NCBI RefSeq assembly: GCF_044704955.1
Contig: NC_091977.1
Coordinates: 333,250,001 to 333,314,000, forward strand
DNA from: Pristiophorus japonicus
Taxonomy: Eukaryota
Direction: 5' to 3'
DNA: 64,000 nucleotides
Under the pieces are notes generated by a model. It had not been told where the DNA came from. It made no database searches and worked only from the letters and a program-made list of their open reading frames with translations. Of this stretch, positions 3,901 to 32,186 are shown one piece after another (the stretch's first letter is position 1; every line of letters begins with the position of its first letter). The position numbers and the translations under genes were made by a program.

Positions 3901-3923
3901 AGTATTGGAGGAGACGATTCGCA

Positions 3924-3932
3924 TCATTTCCT
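3924..3932 (+). promoter_or_regulatory. Conserved V-promoter motif TCATTTCCT (V1)
   Basis: Same motif at equivalent distance (59-70 nt) from the ATG of all five V genes. Confidence 0.6.
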
Positions 3933-3990
3933 GTAGGAATGTATTTCATCAACTCAGCAAACCCACTCAGTTCCGCGGCAAACCGGAGAC

Positions 3991-4425
3991 ATGAAGATCC
4001 ATGTAGTGGTCCTATTTGTGGCATCTTTCTCCTGTGAGTACTTTAGGATTGATTCATTTGAAAGTGCAACATATTATTCCACAATAAGTAACGGTCATGT
4101 TCTTTTAAACAGGTGGTGGTCTTGCTCTATCCGTGACTCAGCCCACGAGATCCGTCACCAGGACCTTGAGAAAAACGGCCCGTTTTCGGTGTGTGTTTGA
4201 GGGTGCGGATTTCGTGAGTGTTACGGTTCACTGGTACCGACACACACCGAGCCGAGACTTCCATCGCATTCTCCACGTTAAGACAGACGCCCGTGCAGTC
4301 TACGACGACAATTTCGACAACAGATTCACGGCCGAAAACTTGGAACAAGAAAAGATGAGTCGACTAGACATAAGAGACATCGCGGAGAGCGATGCTGGAG
4401 TTTATTACTGCGCCTTCTGGGCCAG
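3991..4425 (+). CDS. TRGV: T-cell receptor gamma variable gene segment V1 (leader exon 3991..4033, intron 4034..4112, V exon 4113..4425)
   Basis: Leader MKIHVVVLFVASFS, donor GTGAGT, acceptor aacAG, phase 1. V exon is open: ...SVTQPTRSVTR..RFRC..VHWYR..DAGVYYCAFWA, followed directly by a 23-RSS. Confidence 0.9.
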
Positions 4426-4464
4426 CACAGTGACAGGATATTGTGGGGGGCCCTTACAAATACC
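4426..4464 (+). other. V(D)J recombination signal, 23-bp spacer (V1)
   Basis: CACAGTG + acaggatattgtggggggccctt (23 nt) + ACAAATACC (one mismatch to ACAAAAACC). Confidence 0.95.
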
Positions 4465-4867
4465 AATCACCCAACCACCTCTCCGATGGGCTGTGGAGCG
4501 TGTGAACACATTACCCACTGCACAGAATTCAATTTAGAATCGACGAGCAATTACTGTCCAGAGTTAGGTTAAACCGACAATCAGAAGATCGTATCTCAAT
4601 TCTCTAATCCTTTCACCAATTGGAAAGAGCTTGAAATACCCAGATACAGGAGAATAATAGTACTTATACCGCATATCGGGACCAAGTGAGCCGATATTAA
4701 TCCTGTGAACTGTTCACAGACCCAAAGATCTCACGCTGTGAGGATACGCGAGATAAGAGCAACAGACCCGAGGGTTTGGTTTTAAAACCTCGGTTTAATG
4801 CAGTGCTTAAAAGACAGACACTTGTGTATATTTAGCGACAAAACGTACGCGGTTTAAAAAGTCTACA

Positions 4868-6128
4868 ACTCTTTTGGTTGGATAAAATAAAACAGTTACG
4901 TCAAGTGCCCCCCAATTTGGGAGACACTCCAAACATTTTTCAAGGCCCTTTTTTCCTTTTTTTGTTTTTTGTGGGGTTTTTTGTGCACTAAAATCATACA
5001 TTTTACAAGTGCCCCCTATAAAAGGGGAGGGGGACACTAAAACCTGGCAGTTAAAACAAATTAAACTTTAAAACATATAAAATCAAATTAAAATTTGGTT
5101 GCCGGAGGTAATAATGCACTCCAGTCCCTTCGGTGCCCACCTCTCACAGAAGGCCGTGAGCGTACCGATGGACACCACGTGCTCCATCTCCAAGGACACC
5201 CTGGCCCGGATGTAAGCACGGAAGAGAAGCAGGCAGTCGGGTTGAACGACCCCCTCGACCGCCCGCTGCCTGGACCGGCTGATGGCACCCTTGGCCGTGC
5301 CCAGGAGCAGTCCTACGAGGAGGCCCTCGGACCTACCCGCTCCCCTCCGCACAGGATGCCCAAAGATCAGGAGTGTGGGACTGAAGTGCAACCAGAATTT
5401 GAGGAGCAGCCCCTTTAAATAATGGAACAGGGGCTGCAACCTCGCATACTCCATAAAAACATGGAACACGGACTCTTCCAGACCGCAGAAATTGCAGGCG
5501 GCCTGGGAGCCCATGAACCGGCTTAAAAATTTACTGCACGGGACTGCTCCATGCACCACCCTCCAGGCCAAGTCCCTGGTAAATAGTGGGAGGACACCCG
5601 CATAGAGTGCACTCCATTGGGGACCCCCGCCTCCTCCGGACGGCAAGATGGTACGCCATGGCGTGTCCGGACGCAGACGAGGATGGCAAGGTTGAGAGGT
5701 GCAGGAGCAGCCCGTACAGGAAACCCCTCCGCGCAGAACTGAAAGGCACGGAGGGGATTTCCCCGAGGTGGCTCAAGTTGTGAGGCGCCGGCTCCCGAGG
5801 GAGGTTTCGGGGTTTGGCGCTGATGAGGAATTCCGTCCAGACGGGGATCAGTTCGGACAGGATCTCCCCCATGTGCTTGAGCATCCTTGACACACCTAAC
5901 CGAGTCAGGGCCCAGAGCTGTTTTTAGCGACTCGATGGCATCGGCTGCGCAGCGGACGTCGGCCGAATTTAGGTGCTGTGCCAGCACGTCTGCGCCATCC
6001 AGCCCTCTCCTCCGCCATCGAGCAGGTCCCTGACCTTGGTCACCTCGCCAGCCACAGCCCTCTCGTCCGCCTGCCACCTAAAACCTCGGTCGTGGAGATA
6101 CGGATTCCTGAGCAGCAGCTCCTGCAGG
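4868..6128 (-). mobile_element. Tx1-like (L1-clade) non-LTR retrotransposon, 5'-truncated, with 9-bp TSD
   Basis: ORF 5083..5646(-): DLAWRVVHGAVP..CNFCGLEESVFHVF is a C-terminal zinc-knuckle region typical of L1/Tx1 ORF2; AAGTCTACA flanks it at 4859..4867 and 6129..6137. Confidence 0.75.
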
Positions 6129-7776
6129 AAGTCTACAGACCTAAAGGCAATTCCAATATCACATCAATAAATTAATGATTCCCCCCACCCCCCCACACAC
6201 ACACGGAGGAGTGTCGAGAATATAACTAAGTTACATAACGGGATAACTGCAGTGACCTGGGGTAACTGGTGTATTTTCACCCAGAGGGTGGTGGGGGTCT
6301 GGAAAGGGTGGTGGGGGTCTGGAAAGGGTGGTAGAGACAGAACTCCTCATTTCAATTAAAAAATACAGGAAGTGCTGTAACCTACAAGGCTACGGACCAA
6401 GAGCTGGAAAGTGGGATTAGGCTGGGTAGCTCATTTTCGGAATGACGGAAATGGCTTCCTGTGCCGTAAATTTCTATGAACTTTTGGTGTAATTTGCTCA
6501 GACTCGGCCTCTGCTCCGAAAGCTCATGTTTTTTTTTCAATTTCTAAACTCAATTGTTCCGCTGTCGCAGTTGATGACCTCCCCTCCATCATCTCCAATC
6601 TGTCCCGAACACCGTCCCGACCTCTTCCCACCATCCTTACGACCCAACACTGGCTCCCTGACCCCAACTCAGCACATTTTAAATCATTTCCATCTTTAAA
6701 TCTCTTGATGGCTTCACTCTGTTCCATCTCTGCAACGTCCTCTAGGGTTTCGCCATCCGACAGTCCTGGAACTCCCGCCCCTTCTTTCCTCCACCTTTCG
6801 CTGCACAAACCCACTGCCTGCAACTCTGCCTAAACCCTCCACCTCTCTCAATAAAACCCTTAGCAAAAGCGATCTTTTTCAACAGCTGCCGATAACACAT
6901 CCCACTCTCTCCCTGTAGGGGTTGATGTCTGACCCCCAGATTTCAAAGTGTCTCCGGTGTTTCCTACATTAAATGTTAATATTTAATTGCAACTTGCCGT
7001 GTTCGCTGAGCTGTTTGCCAATTCTCTTGCACTTTGGATTATCTATTGAGTTCGGATGCATTTGCACTAATGCAAATCGGAGCAGCCAGTTTGATGATCT
7101 GCAATAATAGTTTTGCTTCCTACGGGCACGGAGGTTGTAAATTAAACGAAGAGTCTGGGCCCTGCTTAAATGTAGAGACAAGTTGTGACGCCGCCAGGAG
7201 GAGCCAGTCTTGCGCCGCTAAAATTCGATAGTACTTAGGAAGTAAATCCAACTGAGTTTAAAAAGTGTCCATTTAAAGCTTATACATTTAACTCAAAGTC
7301 GGTTTAAAAAGTGTGGAGATTGTTCCCACTCTCTCGTATCAAATAAGTAAAATGTAACTGCTGGTAGGAGCCGTACAAATGGACAAAACATTCTCCGGAG
7401 CAGAGTTGGAGCCAAGCTGCATAAACAGGTCAATGTCTGATGAAACTAACATTGCAGCTGAAACCAGTAATTACAATGTAACATTAATCACCCGTCAACA
7501 TGTCAGGGTTACCAATCGTACACTGAGCAAATGTGAAGATCAATGGAGGCCACGAGGTACAGAAACAACACGTTTAGGTTGAATTAATATCCTGGATTAG
7601 TCGGTAGTGGAAAGACCTTTCCCGGTGTAAAAGGCATCCAACCAATCAGAATGAGTCCAGCGGACTTTAAAGTCAAAGGGGTCAACGTGGTTTCTTATTG
7701 GTTGCGCGTTTATTTCCAACACCAGATTTCTGATTGGTCACATTGGAGGACAAGACACACCCAGCAGTTTATCCGG

Positions 7777-9046
7777 AACATAAAAAATAGGAGCAGGAGT
7801 AGACCATTTGGCCCCTCGAGCCTGCCCCACCATTTAATAAGATCATGGCTGATCTGATCATGGATTCAGGTCCACTTCCCTGCCAACTCCCCATAACCCT
7901 TTATTCCTTATCGCTCAAAAATCTGTCTGTCTCCACCTTAAATATATTCAATGAGCCAGCCTCCATAGCTCCCTGGGGTAGAGAATTCCACAGATTTACA
8001 ACTCTCAGAGAAGAAATTCCTCCTCATCTCAGTTTTAAATGGGCAGCCCCTTATTCTGAGACTATGCCCCCTAGTTCATGTTTCCCCTATGAATGGAAAT
8101 ATACTCTCTGCATCCACCTTGTCAAGGCCCCTCATTCTCTTATATGTTTCGATAAGATCACCTCTCATTCTTCTGGACTCCAATGAGTAGAGGCCCAACC
8201 TATTCAACCTATCTTCAAAAGTCAACCCCCTCATCTTCAGAATCAACCTAGTGAACCTTCTCTGAACTGCCTCCAGTGCAAGTATATCCTTCCTTAAATA
8301 CGGAGACCAAAACTGAATGCAGTACTATAGGTGTGGCCTCACCAATACCCTGTACAGTTGTAGCACAACTTCCCTGCTTTTATATTCCATCCCCCTTGCA
8401 ATAAAGGCCAACATTCCATTTGCCTTCCTGATTACTTGCTGTACCTGCATACTAACTTTTTGTGTTTCATGCACAAGGACCCCCAGGTCCCTCTGTACTG
8501 CAACACTTTGCAACTTTTCTCCATTTAAATTATAATTTGCTTTTCTATTTTTTCTACCAAAGTGGATAAGCTCACATTTTCCCACATTATACTCCATCTG
8601 CCAAATGTTTGCCCACTCACTTAGCCTGTCTATATCCCTTTGCAGATTTTTTGTGTCCTCCTCACAATTTGCTTCCCCCCCAATCTTTGTACTATCAGTA
8701 AACTTGACTACATTACACTTGGTCCCCTCATCCAAGTCATTAATATAGATTGTAAATAGTTAAGACCCCAGCACCGATCCCTGCGGCACCCCACTAGTTA
8801 CTGTTTGCCAACCGAAAGTGACCCATTTATCCCGACTCTCTGTTTTCTGTTTGTTAGCCAATCCTCTATCCATGCTAATATATTGCCCTCAACCCTGTGA
8901 ACTTTTATCTTGTGCAGTAACCTTTTATGTGGCACCATTTTGAATGCCTTCTGGAAATCCAAATACACCACATCCACTGGTTCCCCCTTATCCACCCTGC
9001 TTGTTACATTCTCAAAGAACTCCAGCAAATTTGCCAAACATGATTT
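7777..9046 (-). mobile_element. CR1 LINE 3' fragment (RT)
   Basis: ORFs 8798..9037(-) YLDFQKAF and 8325..8735(-) KFTDSTKIGG..YRVLVRPHL; CR1 3' tail near 7780. Confidence 0.9.
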
Positions 9047-9214
9047 GTAATTAGATCTTACCTGCCTAAGTAATCAATTATTTTGCCAAGTCTAATTCGA
9101 GCCATTCTCACTGCCAGACTCTAAACAGAACAGATCTGACACAGAACCTTGCCGGTTAAGACCTTCTCCCACCCCAAAAACAAGTTACTGGCCCCACCCC
9201 TACCAAGTTCCTAA

Positions 9215-9325
9215 CCTTTCTACATTACAACAGCGACTACACACCACTTCATTGGCTGTAAAGCACTTTGAGACATCCGGTGGTCGTGAAAGGCGCTACA
9301 TAAATCCAAGTCTTTATTTTTCTTC
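9215..9325 (+). mobile_element. DeuSINE-like SINE 3' fragment
   Basis: tacattacaacagcgactac..cattggctgtaaagcactttg..gtgaaaggcgctacataaatccaagt, matching the reverse complement of the longer copy at 23050..23455. Confidence 0.65.
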
Positions 9326-9789
9326 TTTCCTGCCACTGCAGGTTCCTGACCTTCTCCCTCCACCCCCCATCTCCCCCCACCACCAATCCTCTCCGTCCCC
9401 ACCCCCCACCACCATCGATGAGTCATTGTGTGTGGGTCACAGATTGTTAACAGGTTTATTGGGTATTATGTGAATAATGACAGTGTCAAGAATTCTGGAT
9501 TTCATCCAGTCCAATCATGTCACTTGCCATACACGCACCGAGCTATCTGAGATATCAACCAGGTCTAGGGGCAGGAGAGGGAGAACATGGTGTGGGTGTA
9601 AAGGGGGTGGGGTTGGAAGAATGTGATCCATCTTGCCATCTGGATCATGTTCTCGCTCTCAACCTCCCTCCTTTAGTCCTGGATCACATTCTTCCCCCAT
9701 CCCCACTGTGCTCTCTGTATTCTTTACCCCCTCCCTCCTGAGTTCCTGGTCTTAGCTCCGTTCCCCTCCAATCCTCCACTTTCCCCCTT

Positions 9790-10746
9790 CAATTGTCTCT
9801 CTCCCTTTGAAGCTCATTCTCTCTCCCCTCCTCCTCTCTCTCTCCCCCTCCTCTCTCTCTTTCCCCTTCTCTCTCTCCCCCCTCCTCTCTCTCCCCTCCT
9901 CTCTCTCCCCCTCCTCCATCTCCCCTCCTCTCTCTCTCTCTCCATCCTCTCTCTCCCTCCTCTCTCTCCCTCCCTCCTCTCTTTCCCCTCCTCTGTCTCA
10001 CCCTCTGTCTCTCCCCTCCAATCCCCTCTCTTTCTCCCCCTCCAATCGTCTCTCTCTCCCCGAATCCCTCTCTTCTCCCCTCCTCTCTCTCTCTCTCCCC
10101 ATCACCCTCTATCTCTCCCCCTCCAATCCCCTCTCTCTCTGCCGTCCGATATCCTCTCTATTCATCCACTGATCCCCGCTCTCCTACCTCTCTGATCACT
10201 TTATTGCCCACCTCTGAGCCCCTCTCTCTTCCATCTCCAATTCCCTCCTCACCCTCCTCTTTCTCCCCATCCTCTCTCTCCCATCTCCTCTCTCTCTCTC
10301 CCCTCCGATTTCCTCTGATTCATTATCTCTTGCCCCTCCAATCTCTTCTCTCCTTTCCTTGATCCACTCCCTCTCCCCTCCTCTCTCTCTCCCTCCTCTC
10401 TGCCCCTCTCTCTCCCTCCCTCCTTTCTTCCACTCCTCCCTTTCCCCTCCCCTTCTCTCTCCCCTTCGACTCTCTCTCCCCCCTCTCTCTCTCCCCCTCC
10501 TCTCTCCCCTCCTCCCCTCTCTCCCCCTCTTTCTCTCTCATTCCTCTCTCTCCCCCTCTGTCCCTCTCTCTCTCTTCCCCCTCCTTTCTCTCTCCCCCTC
10601 TCTCTCGCCACCTCTATCTCCCCTCCTTTCTTGCTCCCTCCTCTCTCCCCCCTCCTCTGATTCTCTTTCTCTCTTCCCACTCTGATTTCCTCTCTCTCTC
10701 TCCCCTTTTCATCCTCTGTCTTCTCTCCTTTCCTGTGTCCCCCCCT
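9790..10746. repeat. C/T-rich polypyrimidine low-complexity tract (~950 bp)
   Basis: Almost exclusively C and T on the + strand; the overlapping S/P/L-rich and E/R/G-rich ORFs are artefacts. Confidence 0.95.
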
Positions 10747-18437: not shown

Positions 18438-19912
18438 ATGCATCAACAACTGGAACAGATGCATCTTGCATATTTCAATCAACGTCTTTGAGATCTCTTC
18501 TTGAGTTTTGCAGAGTCACAGTAGCACACAGTGGGTATTCACCACAGCTTCCACTAGTTTCAAGACTATTTTCAAGACAGTGAGTAGCTCTGGATCAGCA
18601 GGTAAATCTGTGGGACATTATATGGGGCAAAATAAACTTTATTTTGGAAAGGCATAGGTTAATCAAGCATGGAGTTAAAGATAAATCATGTCTGACTAAC
18701 TTGATTGAATTATTTGATGAGGTAACAGAGACGGTTGATCAAGTAGATATGGTGTATATGGACTTTTGCAAGGCTTTCCCTTTTGCTCACACCTGGTGCA
18801 GAGCCTCACCAGTTGGGAGCTCATATCTAGAAATCCTGTCTGCGTTGCCCATGGTTTTCCATCTATCAAAACGAATGGAAATGCAAACAGGAAGTTACCT
18901 TCAAATGTTTAGAAAGTGTCACGTGTCCAAATACCGATCAAAAACAACAACAACTCGCATTTATATTGCTCCTTTAGCAGTAAAAACACCCCAAGTTGCT
19001 TCACAGGAGCGTTGTCATACACCTGCCAGTCTTAATCAATTAGACAACAACATTGCCCATTGGTGTGGTATCTTGACTTCTCCCTCTGCAATTCCCATTA
19101 ACTCTCTCTCCCCATCCACAAGGGCTTTCCCTCCCGTTAACCATCTCTCCCCCAACTGTTCAGAGGACACACTCGCCTTGACCACGTTTCTTGGTGGGGT
19201 TCCACGCCATAGTTCAGCGAGATCAAAGTGGTCACTTTCTGCAGCGTTTCATGCCCAGAGCAGCAGGATCTCAGAGCGGGGAGGATGGGCGGGGCGATGC
19301 AGTAGCACAGATCGGGAGCGGGAACTTACAGCGACCAGGTTGTTAAGACGTAAAGCCACAAACACCGTGCCCAAGAACATGGAATGGGAGCTCGGGCAGG
19401 AGTTACCGACCTTAACAGGCCCTGCCCAGCTTAGCGGGACCTCCCCACACACACAGCTTTTACACTGGCGCGCTGTGGAGTATGTGGGAAAGTAAAAATC
19501 ACAGAAAATACCTTTAATTCAGGCATATGCGGATTCAGAGCATCTATTTCTTTATCAAATGTAAATTCAAATATGTGAAGGATCTAACACAGGGGATAGT
19601 GAAAGAAATTCACTGTAAAGTTTGATTGTCAGCAAGTTTTTCCTCCACTCCCCTGTCTGACTGCACACATTTCCCAGCTCGTTCAACCAAACAGGATCAA
19701 TTCATTACTTTTTTTAAAGTGAGCAATCCTAAATCGAACTTTGAATTCACAATATCTGCGAGCGTAAAACCAATGGAAATAAATGTACGAGGTGACTATC
19801 GCACAGAGAGGAACCGGTCTCACATTTTATAATAAAGAGGGAACTGTAAATTGGGCGGGTTTTATGCCGACAGGAAATTCGCACACTCAGCCTGATAGGG
19901 GAGGGGGGACTC

Positions 19913-19933
19913 GAGTCCTTTCCATTTCTAACC
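19913..19933 (+). promoter_or_regulatory. Conserved V-promoter motif (V2 variant GAGTCCTTTCCA..TCTAACC)
   Basis: Aligns with GAGTCATTTCCT..TCTAACC upstream of V3 and V4. Confidence 0.6.
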
Positions 19934-19974
19934 GTGGGGATTAACTGAGTACCGAGCGGCTCAGGCACTGCACG

Positions 19975-20393
19975 ATGTTCTGGGTGATTGTGGTGCTATT
20001 TTTACCCTGTATGTGTTTCTATTTATTTGTTATATATGTCCATCATTGTTCATCAAATGTTCATCATTTTCAAGTCAAGGCATTTTGTACATTTTTTCCA
20101 GGTGGGTGTTTTGCCGAGACTTTGAAACAGACTCCAATGTCGATTACAAAGTCGCCCAATAAAAGTGCCAGGTTTAAGTGTACGATCAGCGGAGGGAGCA
20201 GCGTGATCCACTGGTACCAGCAGAGACCGGGTCAGGCGCTCGCCAGAATACTCTATTATGAAACCAGCACCGTTCGGGATCCGGAATTCAGCAGCAGGTT
20301 CAAAGCAGAGAAGAACGACAATGTGTGCGTTTTAATAGTTAATGAAATCGCGGAAAGTGACACTGCCACTTATTACTGTGCCTATTGGGATAG
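19975..20393 (+). CDS. TRGV: T-cell receptor gamma variable gene segment V2 (leader 19975..20008, intron 20009..20101, V exon 20102..20393)
   Basis: Leader MFWVIVVLFLP, GTATGT..ttccAG; V exon ETLKQTPMSITK..RFKC..IHWYQQRPG..DTATYYCAYWD; 23-RSS follows. Confidence 0.92.
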
Positions 20394-20432
20394 CACAGCG
20401 CTCAATAGAGGCAGAAAGCCTTGACAAAAACC
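20394..20432 (+). other. 23-RSS (V2)
   Basis: CACAGCG + ctcaatagaggcagaaagccttg (23 nt) + ACAAAAACC. Confidence 0.95.
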
Positions 20433-20639
20433 CAGCGCTTTAGCTCTTTCATTTACCACACAGAAAAACTAGCACTACTTGCATTTAAATAGCGCCCCTA
20501 ACGTAGTAAAACGTCCCAACGCGCTTCACAAGAGCGATTATCAAACAAAATTTGACACCGAGCTAAACTTAAATCAGTCTTTTTATATTTGAAATGTAAA
20601 AAAAAATTCTGGCAGAGTTTTATCTTTGTCCAGGGCTTA

Positions 20640-21015
20640 AAGCGTTAACATATGAGGACAAGTTGCGTAAAGTTGGCTTGCATTCCCGAGTTTAGGAGGT
20701 TGAGAGGTGACCGAATCGAGGTATTTTGGGATTAAAAGATTGAATAGGATAGATAGAGAGAAACGATTTCCTCTGGCACTTGAGTCCAGAACACAGGGGC
20801 ATAACCTTAAAATTAGAGCTGTGCTATTCAGGGGTGATGTCAGGAAACACTTCTTCACACAAAGGGTAGTGGAAATCTAGAACTCTCCCTTTCAAGACTG
20901 AGATGATATAATTTTGTAAACTAAGGGTATCAAGCGATATGGAGCAATGGCGAGTAATCAGATTGAATGGCGGAACGGGCTCGAAGGGCTGAATGGCCCC
21001 CTCCTGTTCCTATGA
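20640..21015 (+). mobile_element. CR1 3' end fragment
   Basis: Degenerate LEFRRLRGD..SRTRGH..FFTQRVV coding remnant and gggctgaatggcc..ctcctgttcctatg tail. Confidence 0.75.
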
Positions 21016-21257
21016 CCCACAAGAAATTGTTTCGGCTAATCTCACCTTTTTACTTTCTCTACTGGAATGAAAGTTTGACCTCAAGAAGAGACAAGCATCT
21101 GCGTGACGGACCACGGGCACCTTCACTCCCCCAGGAATAAAAGGGCGTCCAACAGATTATTGACAATAATCGATCCGGGTAACTAGAACGGAGAAAACGG
21201 AAAGACGGGGCGTGTCCAACACCGACAGCAACATCTCACTGATGGGGTGCAGAGAAA

Positions 21258-21284
21258 TGAGTCATTTCCTTTTAGTTTCTAACC
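21258..21284 (+). promoter_or_regulatory. Conserved V-promoter motif TGAGTCATTTCCT..TCTAACC (V3); perfect AP-1 site abutting an ETS/NFAT-type core
   Basis: TGAGTCA followed by TTTCCT (reverse strand AGGAAA); the TCATTTCC core starts 63 nt upstream of the ATG. Confidence 0.65.
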
Positions 21285-21324
21285 GGTTGGTTGAGTGAAT
21301 GGTCCCTGATCCAGAGGAGTGAAC

Positions 21325-21761
21325 ATGTGGCTGCATTACTGGGTCATTGTGGTGACCGTTTTGCCCTGTATGTGTTTCTGATGGTTAATTCATATGTTGC
21401 TCTTCAGTCTCCTTTATCACGCCGTTCAGTTATTCGTATGTATTCTTTTTGCAGGCGGATGTTTTGCTCAAACCGTGACACAGATAAAGCTATCGGTTAC
21501 CAAACCTGTTGGTAAAACCGGTAGATTCCAATGTCAAGTAAAAGATGTATCGATCAACAACGATAATCCCATTCACTGGTACCAGCACAAAACCGGCCAG
21601 CCGCCCACCAGAATACTCTATTATGGGAGCAAAGTATCGCGGGATCCGGGATTCGAAGCGACGTTTAAAGCTGGGAAGAGTACCGACACTGAATTCTACC
21701 TGACGATCGATAATCTGAAGGCAGAAGATGCGGCCACTTATTACTGTGCGTACTGGGTTCA
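21325..21761 (+). CDS. TRGV: T-cell receptor gamma variable gene segment V3 (leader 21325..21367, intron 21368..21454, V exon 21455..21761)
   Basis: Leader MWLHYWVIVVTVLP, GTATGT..ttgcAG; V exon QTVTQIKLSVTK..RFQC..IHWYQHK..EDAATYYCAYWV; 23-RSS follows. Confidence 0.92.
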
Positions 21762-21800
21762 CACAGTGCGGAACAGAAACACAGACTCTGAACAAAAACC
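21762..21800 (+). other. 23-RSS (V3), full consensus
   Basis: CACAGTG + cggaacagaaacacagactctga (23 nt) + ACAAAAACC. Confidence 0.97.
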
Positions 21801-22149
21801 CTGAATCACTCAAGGTTTACCTATCAGAGAAACCCACAGACTCCTCGCCTGAGCGGGCAAAACAGCAGCGACACCCCAGCTGGATTTGCAGCTTAACTTT
21901 TTCTGCCTAAACCCATGAAATGCCAAGTGATGCGATGCGAGCCAAGTCTCTGTCACTTTAATCCATTTGCTTCTTCTGAAGTGCTCGACATGGAGTTTAA
22001 AACACCGAAAGCTACCTTAGCAGGGAGTTTGCGGCCCCTGGTAAAGATGGACCTGCTCTGTTGGCGTTGCATTGAGGTTCACCTGGGGGTTTTAACTGCA
22101 GAGATGGTCCGTCAGAGACCGGCTCCCAGAGTGTCAGCCAAACCAGTGT

Positions 22150-22860
22150 TTTATAAAGGTTCATCATCATTCCCTTGCTTTTGTACTCTATGCCTCTATT
22201 TATAAAGCCCAGGATCCTTTAAGCTTTTTTAATTGCTTTCTCAACCTGTCCTACCACCTTCAATGATTTGTGCACATATACCCTCAGGTCTCTCTGTTCT
22301 TGCACCCCTTTAGAATTGTACTCTTTAGTTTATTTTGCCTCTCAATGTTCTTTTTATCAAAATGTACCCACTTCTCACTTTTCTGTGTTAAATTTCATCT
22401 GTCACATGTCTGCCCATTTCACTAGCCTGTCCACGTCCTCTTGAAGTATATCACTATCCTCCTCACTGTTCACTATACTTCCTAGTTTTGTGTCATCTAC
22501 AAATTTTGAAATAGTGCCTTTATGCCCAAGTCCAAGTCATTAATATATATCAAGAAAAGTAGTGGTCATAGTACCGACCCATAGAGAACATCACTGTACA
22601 CCTTTCTCCAGTCCAAAAAACAACTGTTCATCAATATTCTCTGTTTCCTGTCACTTGGCCAGTTTCAGATCAATGCTACCACTGTCCCTTTTATTCTTCA
22701 CCTTTGCTGGCAAGCCTATTATGTGGCACTTTATCAAACGCCTTTTGGAAGTCCATGTACGCCACATCAACTGCATCACCCTAATCAACCCTCTCTGTTA
22801 CCTCATCAAAATACTCAATCAAGATAGTTAAACACGATTTGCCTTTAACAAATCCGTGCT
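22150..22860 (-). mobile_element. Old CR1 RT fragment
   Basis: Reverse-strand remnants of YMDFQKAFDKVPH, LIYINDL, KFVDDTKL. Confidence 0.75.
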
Positions 22861-23049
22861 GAAGGAAACCCCATTAGCTTGCACTCTTGAGATCCAGGTT
22901 GTGAGGCAAAAGTAGCTGGAGACCCAGGCCTGATCTTGACCCATGAGTCCACATAGGTACATCTGCTGGGATTCACAAAGATGACACCCAGGGACACCCA
23001 CATGTTGCCCAGATTGTGGCGAGCAAAGGGCTCAGCCTCCTGGAGATAA

Positions 23050-23455
23050 AGAAGAAATAACTTGCATTTATATAGTGCCTCAGAATGTCCCAAAGTGCTT
23101 TACAGCCAATCAAGTGCCTTTGGAAGTGTAGTCACTGTTGTAATGTAGGAAACGCGGCAGCCAATTTGCGCACAGCAAGCTCCCACAGACAACAATATGA
23201 TAATGACCAGATAATCTAATTAATGATGTTGGTTGAGGGATAAATATTGGTCAGGGCACGGGGGAGAACTCTCCTGCTCTTCTTTGAAATAGTGCAGTGG
23301 GATCTTTTACCTGAGGGAGCAGACGGGGGTCTCGGTTTAACGTCTCATCTGAAATATGGCACCTCCGGCAGTGCAGCACTCCCTCAGTACTGCACTGGGA
23401 GTATCAACCTAGATTATGTGCCGAAGTCTCTGGAGAGGGTCTTGAACACACGAGA
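23050..23455 (-). mobile_element. DeuSINE-family SINE (SacSINE1/AmnSINE1-like), near full length
   Basis: Reverse complement contains a Deu-like core gctgccgcgtttcctacattacaacagtgactacacttc and an L2-type tail ..ggcactatataaatgcaag; family assigned from recall, not from a search. Confidence 0.7.
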
Positions 23456-24007
23456 TCTGAACATACGTTTCCATATTTCTTGGCTCTCCCCGAATTCCCA
23501 ACGGGAATATGGATAAACACCTCGAGATTTCTGAGCTGTCGATTATTGGAACTTCCAGAAACTGTGAAAATAATCGCGGAGTTTCTCTAAAGTGGTAGAG
23601 ATAGGGTTGCAAGAAGATATGAAGGATGGAAAGTGAGAAAAGAGACAGAGGCAGAGAAAGTGCGTCAGGGGAAAATGACAGGTAAAATACAGTCAAAAGG
23701 GCAACACAGTAATAGCCCCAGTCACCCAGAGAAAACAAAGAGATTAAAAACAAAATGTTAGAGCAATATTGATTACAAAACTGCATTCATGGGAGTAAAA
23801 ACACAGCAAGAGCGAAGCAGTAGTTTATTTATTTCAATCCTTTTGAGATGATAAAGTTTGCACCATCTACAGTTTACAATAGGCTTGAACCACTGCGCCT
23901 CCCACCTCCTACACATCAATGAAAAAACACTCAACCTTTGTGTAAAGAGCGATGAAGCAATGATCCAGAATGTGAACAGATCGCGGTACCGCCAGGATCC
24001 GAGATGC

Positions 24008-24034
24008 GAGTCATTTCCTCTTTAACCTCTAACC
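24008..24034 (+). promoter_or_regulatory. Conserved V-promoter motif GAGTCATTTCCT..TCTAACC (V4)
   Basis: TCATTTCC core starts 70 nt upstream of the ATG; matches V2 and V3. Confidence 0.65.
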
Positions 24035-24080
24035 ATCTCGTTAAACGGAGCGAGTGTATCCTAATCTTCACTGCTGCACC

Positions 24081-24492
24081 ATGTCGTTCAATTGTCTAGT
24101 TGTGGGGCTGATACTTTCTTCCAGTAAGTGTGTCAGGAATCAGTTTGTGATTTTTGCCTATCGTTCTAAACCATTTGGCTTTGCTGTGTTTTCTTTGCAG
24201 GTGGGTATTTTGCCGAGGTCTTGAAGCAGTTTCCGATATCGATCACCAAGCCTAAGACTGCCACGGTCAAAATACAATGCGTGACACAGAACACAGAAAT
24301 TATCCACTGGTACCAACACCGACCTAACGAGGCGCCGAGAAGAATAATCCATTCTAGCAAGAGCCGAACGGTGCTAGAGTCGGGAACCCCAGCCAAGTTC
24401 TCAGCTGAGAAGAGTGACTCTTCATTCTTTCTTGTAATTGATAACATTGAACTATCGGATTCTGCCATGTATTATTGTGCCTACTGGTTCTC
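24081..24492 (+). CDS. TRGV: T-cell receptor gamma variable gene segment V4 (leader 24081..24123, intron 24124..24200, V exon 24201..24492)
   Basis: Leader MSFNCLVVGLILSS, GTAAGT..ttgcAG; V exon EVLKQFPISITK..KIQC..IHWYQHRP..DSAMYYCAYWF; 23-RSS follows. Confidence 0.92.
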
Positions 24493-24531
24493 CACAGTGC
24501 GAAACAACTATAGAAACCCATTACAAAAACC
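24493..24531 (+). other. 23-RSS (V4), full consensus
   Basis: CACAGTG + cgaaacaactatagaaacccatt (23 nt) + ACAAAAACC. Confidence 0.97.
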
Positions 24532-24877
24532 TCCAGGGCTCCCCGCTGCTCACAAGTTCACATGACAAGAGGTGAATCTTTTTGCTTGGAGTTCCAAATT
24601 ACTTTCCCCGATTGTTAATGACAGCTATTTTTTTTCTGAGTATAATCTCCATATATTTTACAATGAAATAAATGCACAAAGTGAAAGGAGTGATATTGTT
24701 CATTATTTTCAACTCTCTTTGGAAAGTCCTGCATTAAAAAGAAAATGCAACCTATAATTGATTCACGGTATTTTCTCCTGTTTATTCAGTTCTCAAAAAT
24801 GTACGTTCATATATACATTTTATGAAGCAGTGCATTACATATACATTGTATAAGGTCCACGTTCACACATATTTTAT

Positions 24878-25995
24878 AGAATCATAGAATGGTTACAGCA
24901 CGGAAGAAGGCTATTCGGCCCATCAAGCCCATGCCGTCTCTTAGCTATTCCCACTCCCCCGCCCTTCCCCAAAGCCCTGCAATTTTTTTCTTTCAGATAC
25001 TTATCCCATTCCCCATTGAAAGATAAAATAGAACCTGCTTTCACCACCCTTTCAGGCAGTGCATTCCAGATCTTTACCATTCGCTGCATACATTTTTTTT
25101 CTTAAGTTGCTTTTGGTTCTTCTGCCAATCACCTTAAATCTGTGTCCTGTCGTTCTCAACCCTTCTGCGAATGGGAACAGTTTCTCTCTGTCTACTCTGT
25201 CCGGATCCCTCATGTTTTGAACACCTCTTTCAAATCTCCTTTCAATCTTCTCTGTGCCAAGGAGAACAACCCCAGCTTCTCCAGTCTATGAACACAACTG
25301 AAGTCCCTCATTCCTTTGCAGGAATTCTCATTCTCATAAATCTTTTCTGCACCTCCTAAAGTGTGCTGCCCAGAATTGGACACAATGCTCCAGTTGCAGC
25401 CGAACCAATGTTTTATACAGGATCATCATAATTTCCACACTTTTGTACTCTATATCTCTATTTAAGAAACCCAGGATCCTATAAGCCTTTTTAACTGCTT
25501 TCTCAACCTGCCTTGCCACCTTCAATGATTTATGCACATATACCCCTAGGTCTCTATGTTCGTGCACCCACTTTAGGATTGTACCATTTAGTTTATATGT
25601 TCTCTCCTCATTCTTTCTACCAAAATGCATCACTTGACACCTTCCTGCATTAAATTTCATCTGTCATATGTCCACACATTTCACCAGCTTGTCTATGTCT
25701 TCCTGAAGTCTATCACTATCCTCCTCACTGTTCATCATACTTCCAAGTTTTGTGTCATCTACAAATTTTGAAATTGTGCACTGTACATCCACGTTCATGT
25801 CATTGATATATATCAAGAAAAGCAGTGGTCCTGGAACTGAGGAACACCACTGTATACCTTCCTCCAGTCCAAAAAACAAACATTCATCGCTACTTTCCGT
25901 TTTCTGTCACTTAGCCAATTTTGTCTCCAGGCTGCCACTGTCCCTTTTATTCCATGGGCTTCAATTTTTCAGGCAGGCCTATTATGTGGCACTTT
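24878..25995 (-). mobile_element. CR1 3' fragment
   Basis: ORFs 25664..25879(-) KFVDDTKLG and 25334..25660(-) YKTLVRLQLEHCVQFW; (atagaatc)n tail. Confidence 0.85.
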
Positions 25996-26696
25996 GCTTG
26001 TGGAATTTACAATCAAGTGTGCATTTTGTGACCCCAGAACACATTCCAAGTTGCCTGGGGCATGTGGAGGTAATGAGCGACTCATTCCAATGTGAGTTCA
26101 CACTGCCAGCGATACTTGTCCAAGGGTTGGGGAAGATTGCTTGCCCTTAGTTTCTGGAGATTAGTCAGACCTGTGTGCAATGGAAGGACTCTCCATCCTA
26201 GTAGTGATGTTGGTTGGGGTGATTACACCATAGTTGCTGGGTGAATTACTGTGCTGGAGGGGGAGGGGAGGGGAGGCTTGATGCACCATGATTCCCGCCA
26301 AACTTGCACCCCAGGCTATCTGACACATTTCCTGTTCCAGGAGTAGGCCAAATATCGTTCATTCTGGTTGGAATTTAACCCAGGTTGTTCACTTAACCTT
26401 CTGTGAAGGGAATGACTGATGTGATAGAGAGTCTGTTGCATCAGTCATTGTACCACTCCCATCTGAAAATGGGATTAGCCTACAAGTGGGTGAGACAAAC
26501 CAGTGAGACGGGCGTCACGGCAATTGTGGGATTTGGACCAGGTATACAAGGGCAACATAATCCATTCTAAAAATGATTGTGGGGAAGGCAACCGTCCCCC
26601 ATCACGCATCAATGGTTGTGCAGATGGGCGTGTAGCAGCTGTGTTACACTGTATGTCATTATTTTGTAATTGTACACATTATCCTGGTAATGAATC

Positions 26697-26901
26697 TATT
26701 ATGTATGTAACTATGTAATACTTGCCACCAGAGGGCGCGACAGTTGGAGTCCTAATGGTCAACTGCACACACGTGCAGGGCCAGTATAAAAGATTGGCTG
26801 CCATGTTGTTTAGGCACTCTGGAGTTGTAATAAAGAAGACTAAGGTCACACTAAGTTTAGCTCACAGTACTCAGCCTCGTGGAGTTCTTCTATACACAAC
26901 A
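26697..26901 (+). mobile_element. Solo LTR of a related Gypsy family
   Basis: Shares gccaccagaggg, TATAAA, AATAAA, aagactaaggtcacact and ..atacacaaca with the other LTRs; flanked by GAATC/GGATC (5-bp TSD, one mismatch). Confidence 0.75.
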
Positions 26902-27127
26902 GGATCGGAGTAAAGATTAAAATTAGATGCATAAACACGTATGGAGATGAGCAGCTTCAGTTTGGAACCTGTGAGTGCGAGTTTGGAGACGAGCCTGCTG
27001 TCAAAATGGCCGAGATTGACAGCAAGGTGGGATCCCACTCTGAACCTGCTTCCTTGTCAGTTTCCCAAGTGTCGGTTCTGTCATTTCTGAACAGACGCAA
27101 CACCAAGTGGCGGGTCAGCCAATTTAA

Positions 27128-28190
27128 TAAGAACATAAGAAATAGGACCAGGAGTAGGCCATATGGCCCCTAGAGTCTGCTCCGCCATTTAATACGATCA
27201 TGGCTGATCCGATCATGGACTCAGGTCCACTTCCCTGCCTACTCCCCATAACCCCTTATTGTTTAAGAAACTGTCTATTTCTGTCTTAAATGTATTCAAT
27301 GTCCCAGCTTCTATAGCTCTCTGAGGCAGCGAATTCCACAGGTTTACCACCCTCTGAGAGAAGAAATTTCTCCTCATCTCAGTTTTAAATGGGCAGCCCT
27401 TTATTCTAAGATTATGCCCTCTAGTTCTAGCCCATCCTCTTTGCATCCACCTTGTCAAGCCCCCTCATAATCTGATATGTTTTGATAAGATCACCTCTCA
27501 TTCTTCTGAATTCCAATGAGTAGAGGCCCAACCTACTCAACCTTACCTCATAAGTCAACCCTCTCATCCCCAGAATCAACCTAGTGAACCTTCTCTGAAC
27601 TGCCTCCAAAGCAAGTATATACTTTCGTAAATATGGAAACCAAAACTGCACGCAGTATTCCAGATGTGGCTCACCGATACCATGTATAAGTGTAGCAAGA
27701 CTTCCCTGCTTTTATACTCCATCCCCTTTGCAATAAAGGCCAAGATTCCATTGGCCTTCCTGATCACTTGCTGTACCTGCATACTATCCTTTTGTGTTTC
27801 ATGCACAAGTAGTCCCAGGTCCTGCTGTACTGCAGCACTTTGCAATCTTTCTCCATTTAAATAATAACTTGCTCTTTGATTTTTTTCTGCCAAAGTTCAT
27901 GACCTTACACTTTCCAACATTATACCCCATCTGCCAAATTTTTGCCCACTCACTTAGCCTGTCTATGTTCTTTTGCAGATTTTTTGTGTCCTCCTCGCAC
28001 ATTGCTTTTCCTCACAGCTTTGTATCATCAGCAAACTTAGCTACGTTACACTCAGTCCCTTCTTCCAAATCGTTAATATAGATTGTAAATAGTTGGGGTC
28101 CCAGTACTGATCCCTGCGGCACCCCACTAGTTACTGATTACCCACCTGAGAATGAACCATTTATCTTGACTCTCTGTTTTCTGTTAGTTA
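27128..28190 (-). mobile_element. CR1 3' fragment
   Basis: ORFs 27427..27651(-), 27576..27893(-) and 27213..27458(-) are CR1 C-terminus; (aagaacat)n tail. Confidence 0.88.
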
Positions 28191-28199
28191 GTTAAAAGC

Positions 28200-29680
28200 T
28201 TGCTAAAAGGTAGTTAAGCAGGATTTTACCATTTTACCAGGTTTTAAATGAGTTTCCTGAGTGCAGTTATCATGTCAGATAAGTAAGTCGGATATTGTGT
28301 CAGCTGCAAATGGTCTATGAAAGTTCCCATTTCATATGTCTTCACTTTCCAAGGTTAGAAGCAGTTGCTGACCGCATTTAGAAGACAGATTGTCCTTTAT
28401 GCAGCTAGCAAGTGTTTGCAGCAAACCTCTCTCACCATTGACAGATCGCTTCTGCCACTACAACCTCACCTGCCATCTATTCCATCAGCATCGGTGCCTT
28501 TGAAAAAATCTCAACTTGGTTCTCAAATTCCCAATATAATCAACCCCAACACCAGGATCACCGGAAACTCTAGCAGCACTAACATTCACATCAACCTTCT
28601 CTGCAATCAACTGATGCTGCACTGGACACAGGGCATCATCATCCATGCACATTGCTGCCCAGGACACCAGTGATGGCCTCACCATGTTCAGATTTGCTTC
28701 ACTTAACACAGTACACCCTGGTCACCACATGATATGCCCGATTGGCACTACCCCATACCAGCATCATAAAACATCCCTACAATGTTCAAGCCATTCCTTT
28801 CACACTCATTACCATTGGAGCAGGGTGGAGGGGAGGGCGCTATACCTTACCATTCACTGGAACTTACTGAGACACTTTCAAAATGCACACAGATCTGTCT
28901 AAGAAGGCCAAGTGGTGAAAATAAAGATTTCAATGCTTGACAATACATTAACAAAAAATTCGCTAAAGCACCCAAGTGTCTACCCTTGTGTGCTGTTAGT
29001 TTGAATAATTGGACAAGGATGTGGGTGAGTGTGCAGGGTGGCTAGTGAGATGGGGAAATGATAATGTAGATAGAGAAGTATGGGTGGAGGTGTAAGGTAA
29101 GTTGGTGTGAGTATGGATGTTCAGGAGTAGGATAGGGAAGGCAGAGTGAGACGGATGTAATGAGTGCCACAGGAGGATGAGGTTGAGTGTGGCTTTGCAG
29201 TAACATTTCATGATCTACTGAGATAATTGAAAGGTTTGAACCACTGTAGCCAGGTCCTCCTGATGACATGCCTGCTTGTGCCCCCCTGTGCAATGTGCAA
29301 TCAAACTGTGTTAATCTCCTGGGGAGATCTCTTCTGCCCATTGGAAGGGAAGAGAGCCTCTGTGCATGCTGTGACTCCCTCCATAAGCATATGGATGATG
29401 TCATGGGAGAGCCTGAGTGCAGCCGTGCTTCCTTGTGCAGTGTTTGTCAGTGTTTGCAGCAGCTCAATGCTGTAGAACACTGATAGCACAACTGTTAAAA
29501 TGAATGTGGACTTGGCCCCTTTAAGGAAACCGGCCGATGAGGGAGGGTAGTCTTAACAAGCCCCATCATTGCAAAATCACTTGGAGGAGGTGGGATGAAG
29601 ACGGGAACGGGTTTTAAGGCTGCTGTCTTCTCCGGCCACACTGGGCTCGCCACGGCTGGCAAAATCATGGCCATGGTTTC
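28200..29680 (-). mobile_element. PIF/Harbinger DNA transposon remnant (Myb/SANT-like accessory ORF)
   Basis: ORF 29301..29489(-) ..ALRLSHDIIHMLMEGV..EALFPSNGQK.. continues past a stop into LHIA..RRTWLQWFKPFNYL, a decayed Myb/SANT-like domain; boundaries uncertain. Confidence 0.55.
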
Positions 29681-29984
29681 TGAGCTGCTAGACCAAGAAA
29701 TGTAATGGGTCAGAGATGAACAACATAGGATCCAAGGCAGGTAGGTTTCCTGCAGTTTTACTTAATTTATCTTTGGTGACCAAGGTGAAACTTTGTAGAA
29801 CCTTTCCTCAGCAGGTTGTATATGGTTTTGTGAAGGATCAGGCTTCATGGGCCAGATGGGCTATACTTCTGTTCACAGATGTGAGCCTGATTCATTTATG
29901 ACTTCGAAGCTCATTAGATATCTGGTCAGTTTCACTTGTGGAACTGCAAACTATATTGTATGGCTAGACATTAAAGGATAGAAA

Positions 29985-30280
29985 GAAGAAAGAACTTGCA
30001 TGTGCATAGCACCTTCAATGAACTCGGAATTTTCCAACGTGTTTCACAATTAATGAAGTGTTGTCATTTTTGTAATGCATGGATATGGAGCAGCCAATTT
30101 GCACTCAACAAGGTCCCTCATACAGCAATGAGCTAAATGCAAAAAATTATCTGTTTTAGTGACATTGGTTGAGGGATAAATATTGGTAGAACACCAGGAG
30201 AACACCCCTGCTTTCTTTGAATAGTGCCATGGATTGTTTTACATCCACCTAAGAGGGCTGATAGGACCTCAGTTTGAAAC
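29985..30280 (-). mobile_element. DeuSINE-like SINE fragment
   Basis: Shares gcagccaatttgc, ttggttgagggataaatattgg and aatagtgc..gggat blocks with 23050..23455. Confidence 0.65.
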
Positions 30281-30284
30281 AAAT

Positions 30285-30930
30285 AAAGAGAGAAAGAAAG
30301 TAGAGGTGAAAAATAAAGGAGAGGAGAGCAGAGAAAGAGTGAGAAATGGAGAGAAAGAAAGAGAAAGTCACAGAGAAATAAACAGGAAGCAAAAGAGAGA
30401 GTAGGAGTGAGAAAAAGAGAAAGCGGGAGAGAGTAGGAGAGAGAAAGTGAGAAAGACAGAGAAAGAGAGAAAGAGAGAAGAGGAAGAAAGAGAGAATACG
30501 AGAGAGAAAGACAGAAAGAGAAAGAGAGAGAAAGAAAGAGAGAGAGGAGAGGTAAAAGAGAGAGATAGAGAGAAAGAAAGAGAAAGTGCGAGAAAGTGAG
30601 AGAGAGCAAGAGAGAAAGAGAGAGAGAGAGACAGAGCAAAATACAGGGAGACAGAGAGAAATAGAGAGAAAGAGGAGAGAGAGTGAGAAAGGGAGCAAGA
30701 AAGGGAGAGCGAACGAGAACGAGCAGGAGAGAATGTGTGGGAGAAAGAGCGAGGGAGAGAGAATGGGAGTGAGTGAGCAGGAGAGTCAGAAAGGCAAAGT
30801 GAAAGAGAGAAAGAAAGATAGAGAAAGCGAGAGAGGTAAGGATGAATGAGGGAGAGAAAGAGAAAGAGAGAGAAAGGGGGGTGTGGGTGGGGGTGACAGA
30901 GAGAGAACGAGAGGGAGAAAGAGAAATAAG
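30285..30930. repeat. G/A-rich polypurine low-complexity tract (~650 bp)
   Basis: Degenerate (GA)n/(GAAA)n; overlapping ORFs are artefacts. Confidence 0.95.
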
Positions 30931-31642
30931 TAAAAAGTAAGATTAAGATAAAGAGCTGCACATATGAAGTAAAGATAGGTGACACATTTACTGTATGAAT
31001 GGCTTTGAAATAGCCCAGGATGAAGTTGAGAGAGACCCTGGAGTCTCAGTAGATGCAGAGCATCAATCAACTAAGACAATAGAATGTTGAGCTCCAATGG
31101 CCCAAACTGTGACTATGTCAAAGGAGGTAATGGTCAAACTGTACAGTGCTCTGGTCAGACCACATCGAGCACTGTCTCCAGCTCCAGACAGACACACAGG
31201 AGACATTGAACTGCTGGAGGCAGTGCAGGGAGGAATCAAAAGGCTGTTCCTACTATCAGGCGTTTGAGTTGTGAGCAAAGATTGAAGAAATTTAGGCTCT
31301 TGGTTCTTGCCAAGAGGCGTCTGAGCGATGTTCTTAGAGGTGTGTAAGATTGTTACTGGAATGGAAAAGGTAGATCTGTAAAAAATGCCTCTCTGAATTA
31401 ATGCCTCTCGGAATAGGACAAGGGAACGTAGGACAATAGAAGGAAACTCTCGGAAGCTATCAGGAGGCTGACCACCACTAGGGAGCAACACATGGGATGC
31501 ACTTCCAGGGCAGCGTGGTTGAGCTGAAAGCCTGCTAAAACCCGATCACAGTGAATATCAAGGTGGAACGTCACAGCCACCAAATGCAAACGCCATCATT
31601 CAGGCTACTTGGAGAGCCAACACTGGGTAAGATCGATTGACA

Positions 31643-31650
31643 TCATTTCC
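31643..31650 (+). promoter_or_regulatory. Conserved V-promoter motif TCATTTCC (V5)
   Basis: Starts 63 nt upstream of the ATG, context TGACATCATTTCCG. Confidence 0.6.
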
Positions 31651-31705
31651 GCTATCACAGCAGCCCAGCAACAGGTATTTGTGAAGCTTGGTGTTAGATA
31701 CAAAC

Positions 31706-32147: not shown

Positions 32148-32186
32148 CACAGTGACTGAAAGCGATGGGAAATCCATACAAAAACC
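32148..32186 (+). other. 23-RSS (V5), full consensus
   Basis: CACAGTG + actgaaagcgatgggaaatccat (23 nt) + ACAAAAACC. Confidence 0.97.

What the first reader, a model, noticed from the sequence alone, without database searches (positions are those of the whole stretch)
3924..31650. Shared promoter element TCATTTCC 59-70 nt upstream of all five V ATGs (AP-1 plus ETS/NFAT-like composite)
Seen: V1 gcaTCATTTCCT (3924), V2 gagTCCTTTCCA (19916), V3 tgagTCATTTCCT (21262), V4 cgagTCATTTCCT (24011), V5 gacaTCATTTCCG (31643), starting 67, 59, 63, 70 and 63 nt before the ATG. The flanks are otherwise largely unalignable; V2-V4 also share a downstream TCTAACC. Reverse-complemented, V3 reads AGGAAATGACTCA, an ETS/NFAT core fused to a perfect AP-1 site. 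I saw no Ig-type octamer at these positions. Inference: a lineage-specific core element of shark V-gamma promoters, analogous to the Ig octamer or the V-beta decamer. I do not recall it being described.
Basis: partly seen in the sequence, partly recalled or inferred. Interest (0 to 1): 0.75.

Follow-up and report, generated by a model that had tools for sequence, protein, structure and literature searches.

The report
Shark TCR-gamma V promoter motif
All five T-cell-receptor gamma V genes in this stretch of likely shark DNA carry the same short sequence 59-70 bases before their start codon, and it likely acts as an overlapping docking site for ETS and AP-1/CREB-family transcription factors, a known kind of promoter switch.

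Summary
TCATTTCC (TCCTTTCC in V2) starts 67, 59, 63, 70 and 63 nt before the ATG of five intact TRGV genes. None of 2,796 null sets in each of four tests did as well. The element is longer than reported: GA-N6-TC(A/C)TTTCC-N2-T is invariant in all five.

[quoted passage not shown] NFAT:AP-1 spacing is not met. The ETS half is nearly constant, while the bZIP half differs per gene: AP-1 in V3, methyl-CpG-type meAP-1 in V4, CRE-like in V5, poor in V1 and V2.

- Only V3 has a perfect AP-1 site.
- V2, V3 and V4 share ancestry in their flanks.
- In one related species the V2 copy has lost its GGAA core.

Rivals not excluded are an initiator (TCATTTC fits YYANWYY) and a BATF-IRF AICE2 site. No binding or start-site data exist. 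I did not find it described for shark TRGV, but the main locus paper was unreadable. Verdict: real, new member of a known kind.

The parts
3916..3934 (-). V1 extended element; minus strand ACAGGAAATGA is a 10/10 ETS-AP1 half site; bZIP half poor (TGATGCGA)
   Evidence: motif definition
3991..4464 (+). TRGV V1: leader 3991-4033, intron, V exon 4113-4425, 23-spacer RSS 4426-4464
19853..19883 (+). V2 upstream block: GC box (19853-19859) and a second, forward ETS-type site ACAGGAAAT (19870-19878); no listed change in organism B
19908..19926 (-). V2 extended element, the most degenerate copy (TCCTTTCC); GGAA core lost in organism B
19927..19933 (+). V2 TCTAACC; 4 of 7 positions changed in organism B
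19975..20432 (+). TRGV V2: leader 19975-20008, V exon 20102-20393, RSS 20394-20432; exon-only contig cover in run X10
21254..21272 (-). V3 extended element: perfect AP-1 (21258-21264) overlapping the ETS core; 21254-21268 is a 15-bp palindrome GAAATGAGTCATTTC (AICE2 on both strands)
21278..21284 (+). V3 TCTAACC
21325..21800 (+). TRGV V3: leader 21325-21367, V exon 21455-21761, RSS 21762-21800
24003..24021 (-). V4 extended element; bZIP half is TGACTCG (24007-24013), the published meAP-1 consensus
24028..24034 (+). V4 TCTAACC
24081..24531 (+). TRGV V4: leader 24081-24123, V exon 24201-24492, RSS 24493-24531
31635..31653 (-). V5 extended element; minus strand GCGGAAATGATGTCA is 13/15 to the ETS-CRE motif; CRE-like half 31638-31645
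31706..32186 (+). TRGV V5: leader 31706-31745, V exon 31840-32147, RSS 32148-32186

Best explanation
The five V genes share a fixed-position upstream element that is likely a proximal-promoter ETS site, read on the minus strand as A-N-N-GGAA-A-TG, overlapping a bZIP (AP-1/CRE-family) half-site in the known ETS-AP1/ETS-CRE geometry. Shown: the sequence, its position, its excess over chance and its fit to the published spacing. Inferred: an ETS factor (ETS1/FLI1/ERG or GABP type) binds the constant half and a bZIP dimer the variable half; the pair would drive transcription from a TATA-less start some 20-40 nt downstream, both germline V transcription and, after V-J joining, the gamma chain. Each paralogue would tune this through its own bZIP half. 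V2 would rely more on a second ETS site and GC box further upstream.
For: Positional excess over four nulls. Published motif CAGGAA(A/G)TGA (bioRxiv 10.1101/318048, passages): 0, 1, 1, 2 and 3 mismatches of 10 in V1, V3, V4, V5 and V2. ETS-AP1 12-mer is perfect in V3 and has 1 mismatch in V4; ETS-CRE 15-mer has 2 mismatches in V5. V5 starts GCGGAAA, the variant whose GABPA binding CREB1 raised 16-fold (PMC4555227 section 13). The DNA in an ETS1 crystal structure contains CCGGAAATG (PMC3464117). An ETS pattern ANMGGAART (flank preference recalled) fits 4 of 5 copies with 0 mismatches and accounts for the invariant T at +10. No TATA box on the sense strand within 300 nt in any of the five. Introns and most flanks are unalignable, so neutral survival is unlikely. 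The RNA-like V2 contig of run X10 begins 23-28 nt before the ATG, downstream of the motif (weak, since contigs cannot show a start). A CRE-like decamer is required in a mouse V-beta promoter (title in a reference list only).
Against: No binding, footprint, start-site or reporter data. In organism B the V2 copy differs at 19914, 19921 and 19922, which removes the GGAA core; 2 of 8 core positions changed against 35 differences over 314 nt, so no constraint is visible there (one contig, depth 32). The organism E contig also does not align across 19884-19963. The invariant GA at -8/-7 and G at -16 are not explained by ETS or bZIP. The bZIP half is 3 mismatches from AP-1 and from CRE in V1 and 2 from AP-1 in V2. 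ELF1 and EHF bind such tight sites anticooperatively with JUN-FOS, and ETV5 and CREB exclude each other, so geometry does not prove co-binding. All factor data are mammalian.
Confidence: 0.55

Rival explanations
1. The motif is the initiator itself: transcription would start at the A of TCATTTCC, giving 57-68 nt leaders, and V2's TCCTTTCC would be the TCT-type variant. This can coexist with ETS binding.
For: YYANWYY (recalled) is met exactly in 4 of 5; BBCABW exactly in 2 of 5 and with one mismatch in 3; V2 meets the human TCT consensus YCTYTYY exactly (consensus from PMC5580651 passages). Sense-strand orientation is fixed and there is no TATA box. In V5 it is the only YYANWYY from 40 nt upstream of the motif to the ATG.
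Against: A degenerate initiator does not require identical letters: four independent YYANWYY draws from this window are identical with probability about 2e-6, and the +7 C and +10 T lie outside the consensus. V1 and V3 would carry out-of-frame upstream ATGs at -52 and -26. YYANWYY occurs about once per 95 nt. In V1 a decayed LINE appears to end only about 22 nt upstream of the motif (by eye).
Confidence: 0.2
2. It is an AP-1-IRF composite (AICE2, GAAA/TGASTCA) for BATF-JUN with IRF4 or IRF8, originally double-sided, with the invariant upstream GA as the remnant of a second IRF half-site.
For: V3 is a perfect AICE2 on both strands (15-bp palindrome) and V4 has 1 mismatch (definition in PMC10630337 passages). 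The invariant GA at -8/-7 mirrors the invariant TC at +5/+6 about the AP-1 centre; no other model explains this.
Against: 2, 3 and 4 mismatches of 11 in V2, V1 and V5. The -4 T usually needed for wild-type IRF4 complexes is A in 5 of 5 and C on V3's other side; the paper tested T to C, not T to A. The invariant second G of GGAA is not needed by AICE2.
Confidence: 0.12
3. It is an NFAT site cooperating with AP-1.
For: WGGAAA is met in 4 of 5.
Against: The composite needs about three bases between GGAAA and TGA (example GGGAAACACTGAGCAG; mis-arranged sites fail to cooperate; PMC5632840 passages). Here the gap is zero, and the pattern has 4-6 mismatches of 13. V5 has CGGAAA.
Confidence: 0.05
4. 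It is a neutral leftover of V-gene duplication or short gene conversion, with no function.
For: V2, V3 and V4 share alignable flanks. The V2 copy is not conserved in organism B.
Against: V1 and V5 share the motif although their exons are only 55-64% identical to the others and their introns and flanks do not align. Nulls.
Confidence: 0.08

Closest known systems
[quoted passage not shown]
   Same: Identical core and spacing; V1 10/10, V3 full ETS-AP1 12/12, V4 11/12.
   Different: Described at mammalian, mostly tissue-specific enhancers; here it sits at a fixed place in all five paralogous V promoters, with extra invariant GA (-8/-7) and a bZIP half that differs per gene.
ETS-CRE overlap motif SCGGAAGTGACGTCA (PMC3464117, PMC4555227; passages and one section read)
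   Same: Same overlap geometry and proximal-promoter location; V5 13/15, with the GCGGAAA variant known to be CREB1-enhanced.
   Different: Only V5 fits (others 5-7 mismatches); the central CpG of the CRE is absent; the mammalian motif marks housekeeping-type promoters.
TCR V-beta CRE-like decamer (Anderson 1989: title seen in a reference list; consensus AGTGAYRTCA recalled)
   Same: A short bZIP-type element shared by TCR V promoters; V5 matches 9 of 10.
   Different: V1-V4 have 3-5 mismatches at that place; the shared part here is the ETS core. One-mismatch decamers occur 17 times in the window on both strands, so the V5 match alone is weak.
AICE2 (BATF-JUN-IRF4/8), PMC10630337 (passages read)
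   Same: V3 is a perfect AICE2 on both strands.
   Different: The -4 T is missing in all five; V1, V2 and V5 deviate by 2-4 bases.
meAP-1 site TGACTCG (PMC3950711; passages read)
   Same: V4's bZIP half is exactly TGACTCG.
   Different: Methylation state is unknown; V2-V4 promoters are CpG-retaining (o/e 0.79-0.91 vs 0.46 window-wide), which suggests they are unmethylated in the germline.
Sandbar shark TRG locus, five TRGV, three J, one C (as summarised in PMC7349638; passages read)
   Same: Five V genes in tandem in the same orientation.
   Different: No J or C within the 32 kb after V5 here; promoter motifs are not mentioned in the passages read; the original paper could not be read.

Membership tests
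TRGV genes | Leader exon, intron, V-set exon, 23-spacer RSS, open frame | tested here: met
   5 of 5
TRGV genes | Closest relatives are gamma chains | tested here: met
   Top V2 hits are shark proteins (53-55%) and bird gamma-locus proteins, many auto-named IGK/IGL. Shark hit P0009 matches human TCR gamma over residues 8-297 and bird TRGC proteins. Its leader MSLYYWL equals the nurse shark gamma-V1 primer entry in PMC5931798.
TRGV genes | Linked J-gamma and C-gamma | tested here: inconclusive
   None in the window; no genome held
ETS-AP1 / ETS-CRE composite | GGAA core followed by R-TGA with no gap | tested here: met
   4 of 5 exact (V1, V3, V4, V5); V2 has GGAAAGGA
ETS-AP1 / ETS-CRE composite | Complete AP-1 or CRE site | tested here: inconclusive
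   Perfect in V3, one mismatch in V4 (AP-1) and V5 (CRE), poor in V1 and V2
ETS-AP1 / ETS-CRE composite | Joint binding of an ETS factor and a bZIP dimer | not testable with these tools
   Needs EMSA or ChIP
NFAT:AP-1 composite | About 3 nt between GGAAA and TGA | tested here: not met
   Gap 0; 4-6 mismatches of 13
AICE2 | GAAA abutting TGASTCA | tested here: inconclusive
   0, 1, 2, 3, 4 mismatches in V3, V4, V2, V1, V5
AICE2 | T at -4 from GAAA | tested here: not met
   A in 5 of 5
EICE (ETS-IRF, GGAANNGAAA, recalled) | GAAA two bases after GGAA | tested here: not met
   Last two A's missing in 5 of 5
Initiator (Inr/TCT) | Consensus match on the sense strand | tested here: met
   YYANWYY 4 of 5; TCT in V2; BBCABW exact in 2 of 5
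Initiator (Inr/TCT) | Transcription starts inside the motif | tested here: inconclusive
   Only contigs available; V2 contig of X10 begins at -28 to -23
V-beta decamer | AGTGAYRTCA (recalled) in each V promoter | tested here: not met
   1 mismatch in V5 only; best match 3 mismatches within 300 nt in V1-V4
Ig octamer | ATTTGCAT (recalled) at a fixed place | tested here: not met
   No exact match; one-mismatch copies at -74, -202 and -122 in 3 of 5

The most novel reading that the evidence does not exclude
Shark V-gamma genes carry a 19-27 bp promoter signature older than their split into families: a fixed ETS half plus a bZIP half recoded per gene (AP-1 in V3, methyl-CpG-gated meAP-1 in V4, CRE/V-beta-decamer type in V5), flanked by an unexplained invariant GA. 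This would give each V its own signal dependence, bias V usage, and link the mammalian V-beta decamer to an ancestral ETS-bZIP module.
Probability: 0.15. Interest if true: 0.7.

Novelty: new member of a known kind. Interest (0 to 1): 0.4.

Why it matters
My searches found no description of V-gamma promoters in cartilaginous fish. A single element shared by all five V genes gives a precise target for asking which factors open the oldest known gamma-chain locus, one that also hypermutates. It also allows a test of whether V usage depends on the bZIP half. The site class itself is known, and nothing here shows function, so the interest is moderate.

Tried and rejected
Genome context: no whole genome is held, so TRA, TRB, TRD and Ig V promoters of this species could not serve as controls.

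Literature: eight answered paper searches plus (0 papers; 3 unrelated papers) showed no description of this motif in shark TRGV; most hits were seen as listings only. The sandbar shark locus paper is not held, so prior description is not excluded. Supplements of PMC10322711: 11 of 19 files searched, no hit. Supplements of PMC5931798 were listed, not read.

Sequencing runs: no RNA holder listed; 4 of the 24 listed runs were laid. V3 promoter contigs of organisms B and E align across the motif, but their letter rows were among 464 not shown. The V4 promoter had almost no cover in the other species. V1 and V5 were outside the laid stretch.

Metagenome scan: 1 of 76 candidate stretches confirmed, a bird TRGV (L001; 98% to P0021). 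Its best match in 200 nt has 2 mismatches (CCCTTTCC at -51) with no TCA, GA or +10 T; a TTTCC falls in such a 30-nt window 5-8% of the time, so it is uninformative beyond absence of the full motif.

Other: Rfam 0 matches. PDB search of V3 alone returned antibodies and did not separate gamma from light chain. Cluster look-up could not be made. Four look-ups of earlier findings returned one unrelated note. EICE, AICE1, octamer, decamer and NFAT:AP-1 were tested and rejected as general explanations.
Full report
The locus. The window holds five V genes on the + strand, each with a leader exon, an intron, an open V-set exon and a 23-spacer RSS. A search with V2 found 62 longer proteins among 85 candidates, led by shark proteins at 53-55% identity and bird gamma-locus proteins. 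The shark hit P0009 matches human TCR gamma along residues 8-297, and its leader equals the nurse shark gamma-V1 primer entry in PMC5931798 (passages). The genes are therefore TRGV of a cartilaginous fish, probably a shark. The homologues' first residues agree with the ATGs chosen for V2 and V3. No J or C lies in the window. About 61% of the window is repeated within itself, largely retroelements with reverse-transcriptase frames.

The observation. All coordinates and offsets are exact. TCATTTCC is the best shared 8-mer of the five 200-nt upstream regions, with one mismatch in total; 0 of 2,796 sets reached this in each of four nulls. It is not enriched window-wide. The five copies are not fully independent: V2-V3 align upstream and V2, V3 and V4 align downstream, which accounts for TCTAACC. 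V1 and V5 share only the motif, with exons 55-64% identical to the others and unalignable introns. Anchoring on the motif without gaps shows four more invariant columns (-16 G, -8 G, -7 A, +10 T). The excess holds when V2 or V3 is dropped (P 0.012, 0.0005) but not for V1, V3 and V5 alone (0.087). The pattern GA-N6-TC(A/C)TTTCC-N2-T occurs five times in the window, only at these promoters; it was derived from them, so this count is not a test.

What it resembles. [quoted passage not shown] PMC3464117 and PMC4555227 describe the ETS-CRE and ETS-AP1 overlaps and show that GABPA and CREB prefer exactly this spacing (passages and one section). V1 matches the half site 10 of 10, V3 the full ETS-AP1 12 of 12, V4 11 of 12, and V5 the ETS-CRE 13 of 15. 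V5 begins with GCGGAAA, a variant enhanced 16-fold by CREB1. V4's bZIP half is TGACTCG, which JUN-FOS binds almost only when the CpG is methylated (PMC3950711, passages). The ETS half is thus nearly constant and the bZIP half variable. NFAT:AP-1 spacing is not met, nor EICE, AICE1, the octamer or, outside V5, the V-beta decamer (several of these consensus strings are recalled).

Rivals. The sense strand fits an initiator: YYANWYY in four of five, and the TCT consensus in V2. A degenerate initiator does not explain why the letters are identical (about 2e-6 for four independent draws), but the motif could be both an ETS site and the start. V3 is a 15-bp palindrome that is AICE2 on both strands, and the invariant upstream GA mirrors the TC of TTTC. 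This is the only model that explains that GA, but the -4 T usually needed by IRF4 (PMC10630337, passages) is A in all five.

Other species and RNA. Four of 24 listed runs were laid on 19700-24600. One organism B contig (depth 32) spans the V2 promoter with 35 differences in 314 nt, 30 of them listed. Two fall in the 8-mer and remove the GGAA core, and four fall in TCTAACC. None is listed in the 32-nt block holding a GC box and a second, forward ETS site; five unlisted differences could lie anywhere. An organism E contig also breaks across this segment. So the V2 copy, already the weakest, is not conserved; whether V2 is functional in B is unknown. Run X10, of unrecorded kind, covers exons and not introns (90 nt computed against 90 nt of V2 exon in one bin; a V4 contig begins on the first exon base), so it behaves as RNA. 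Its V2 contig starts 23-28 nt before the ATG, which is only a lower bound on the leader. One bird TRGV promoter lacks the full motif.

Mechanism. I commit to an ETS site overlapping a bZIP half-site acting as the proximal element of TATA-less V-gamma promoters (0.55), ahead of initiator (0.2), AICE2 (0.12), neutral remnant (0.08) and NFAT (0.05). Sequence, position, statistics and geometry are shown; factor identity, start site and function are inferred from mammalian data.

Novelty. The composite is a known class, and a shared bZIP-type element in TCR V promoters has a mammalian precedent (title only). Ten searches showed no description for shark TRGV, but the library lacks most subscription papers, including the sandbar shark locus paper and its supplement. 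Passages of PMC7349638, PMC8872565 and PMC9134016 named no such V-gamma element. Verdict: real, new member of a known kind, interest 0.4.

Noticed in passing
window 2690-3901: Decayed LINE-like reading frames end in a short (ATG)n run about 90 nt before the V1 ATG, so V1 seems to keep only about 22 nt of native sequence upstream of the motif. Read by eye; Pfam gave no hit for 2592-3035.
   Followed up: partly
window 32187-64000: No J or C segment in 32 kb after V5; the stretch is mostly LINE and Gypsy-type LTR retrotransposon fragments, so the locus is spread out by insertions.
   Followed up: partly
window 19853-19903 and 21208-21250: V2 and V3 share an upstream block (GC box, CCGACAG, CTGAT); in V2 it includes a forward ETS-type site with no listed change in organism B.
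   Followed up: partly
window 21299-21322: A 7-codon upstream ORF ends two bases before the V3 ATG; V1 has an out-of-frame ATG at -52 whose frame overlaps the leader.
   Followed up: partly
window 33378-33994: 338-bp tandem repeat, 1.8 copies at 99% identity inside a retroelement; recent duplication or assembly artefact.
   Followed up: no
window 3924-3940: In V1 the motif is one arm of a near-palindrome, CATTTCC-TGTA-GGAATG.
   Followed up: no
window 19775-24080, promoters of V2-V4: CpG o/e 0.79-0.91 in the 200 nt before V2, V3 and V4, against 0.51-0.58 for V1 and V5 and 0.46 window-wide.
   Followed up: no
L001 838-1350: A metagenome contig holds bird host DNA with an intact-looking TRGV gene whose RSS heptamer deviates from consensus.
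   Followed up: partly
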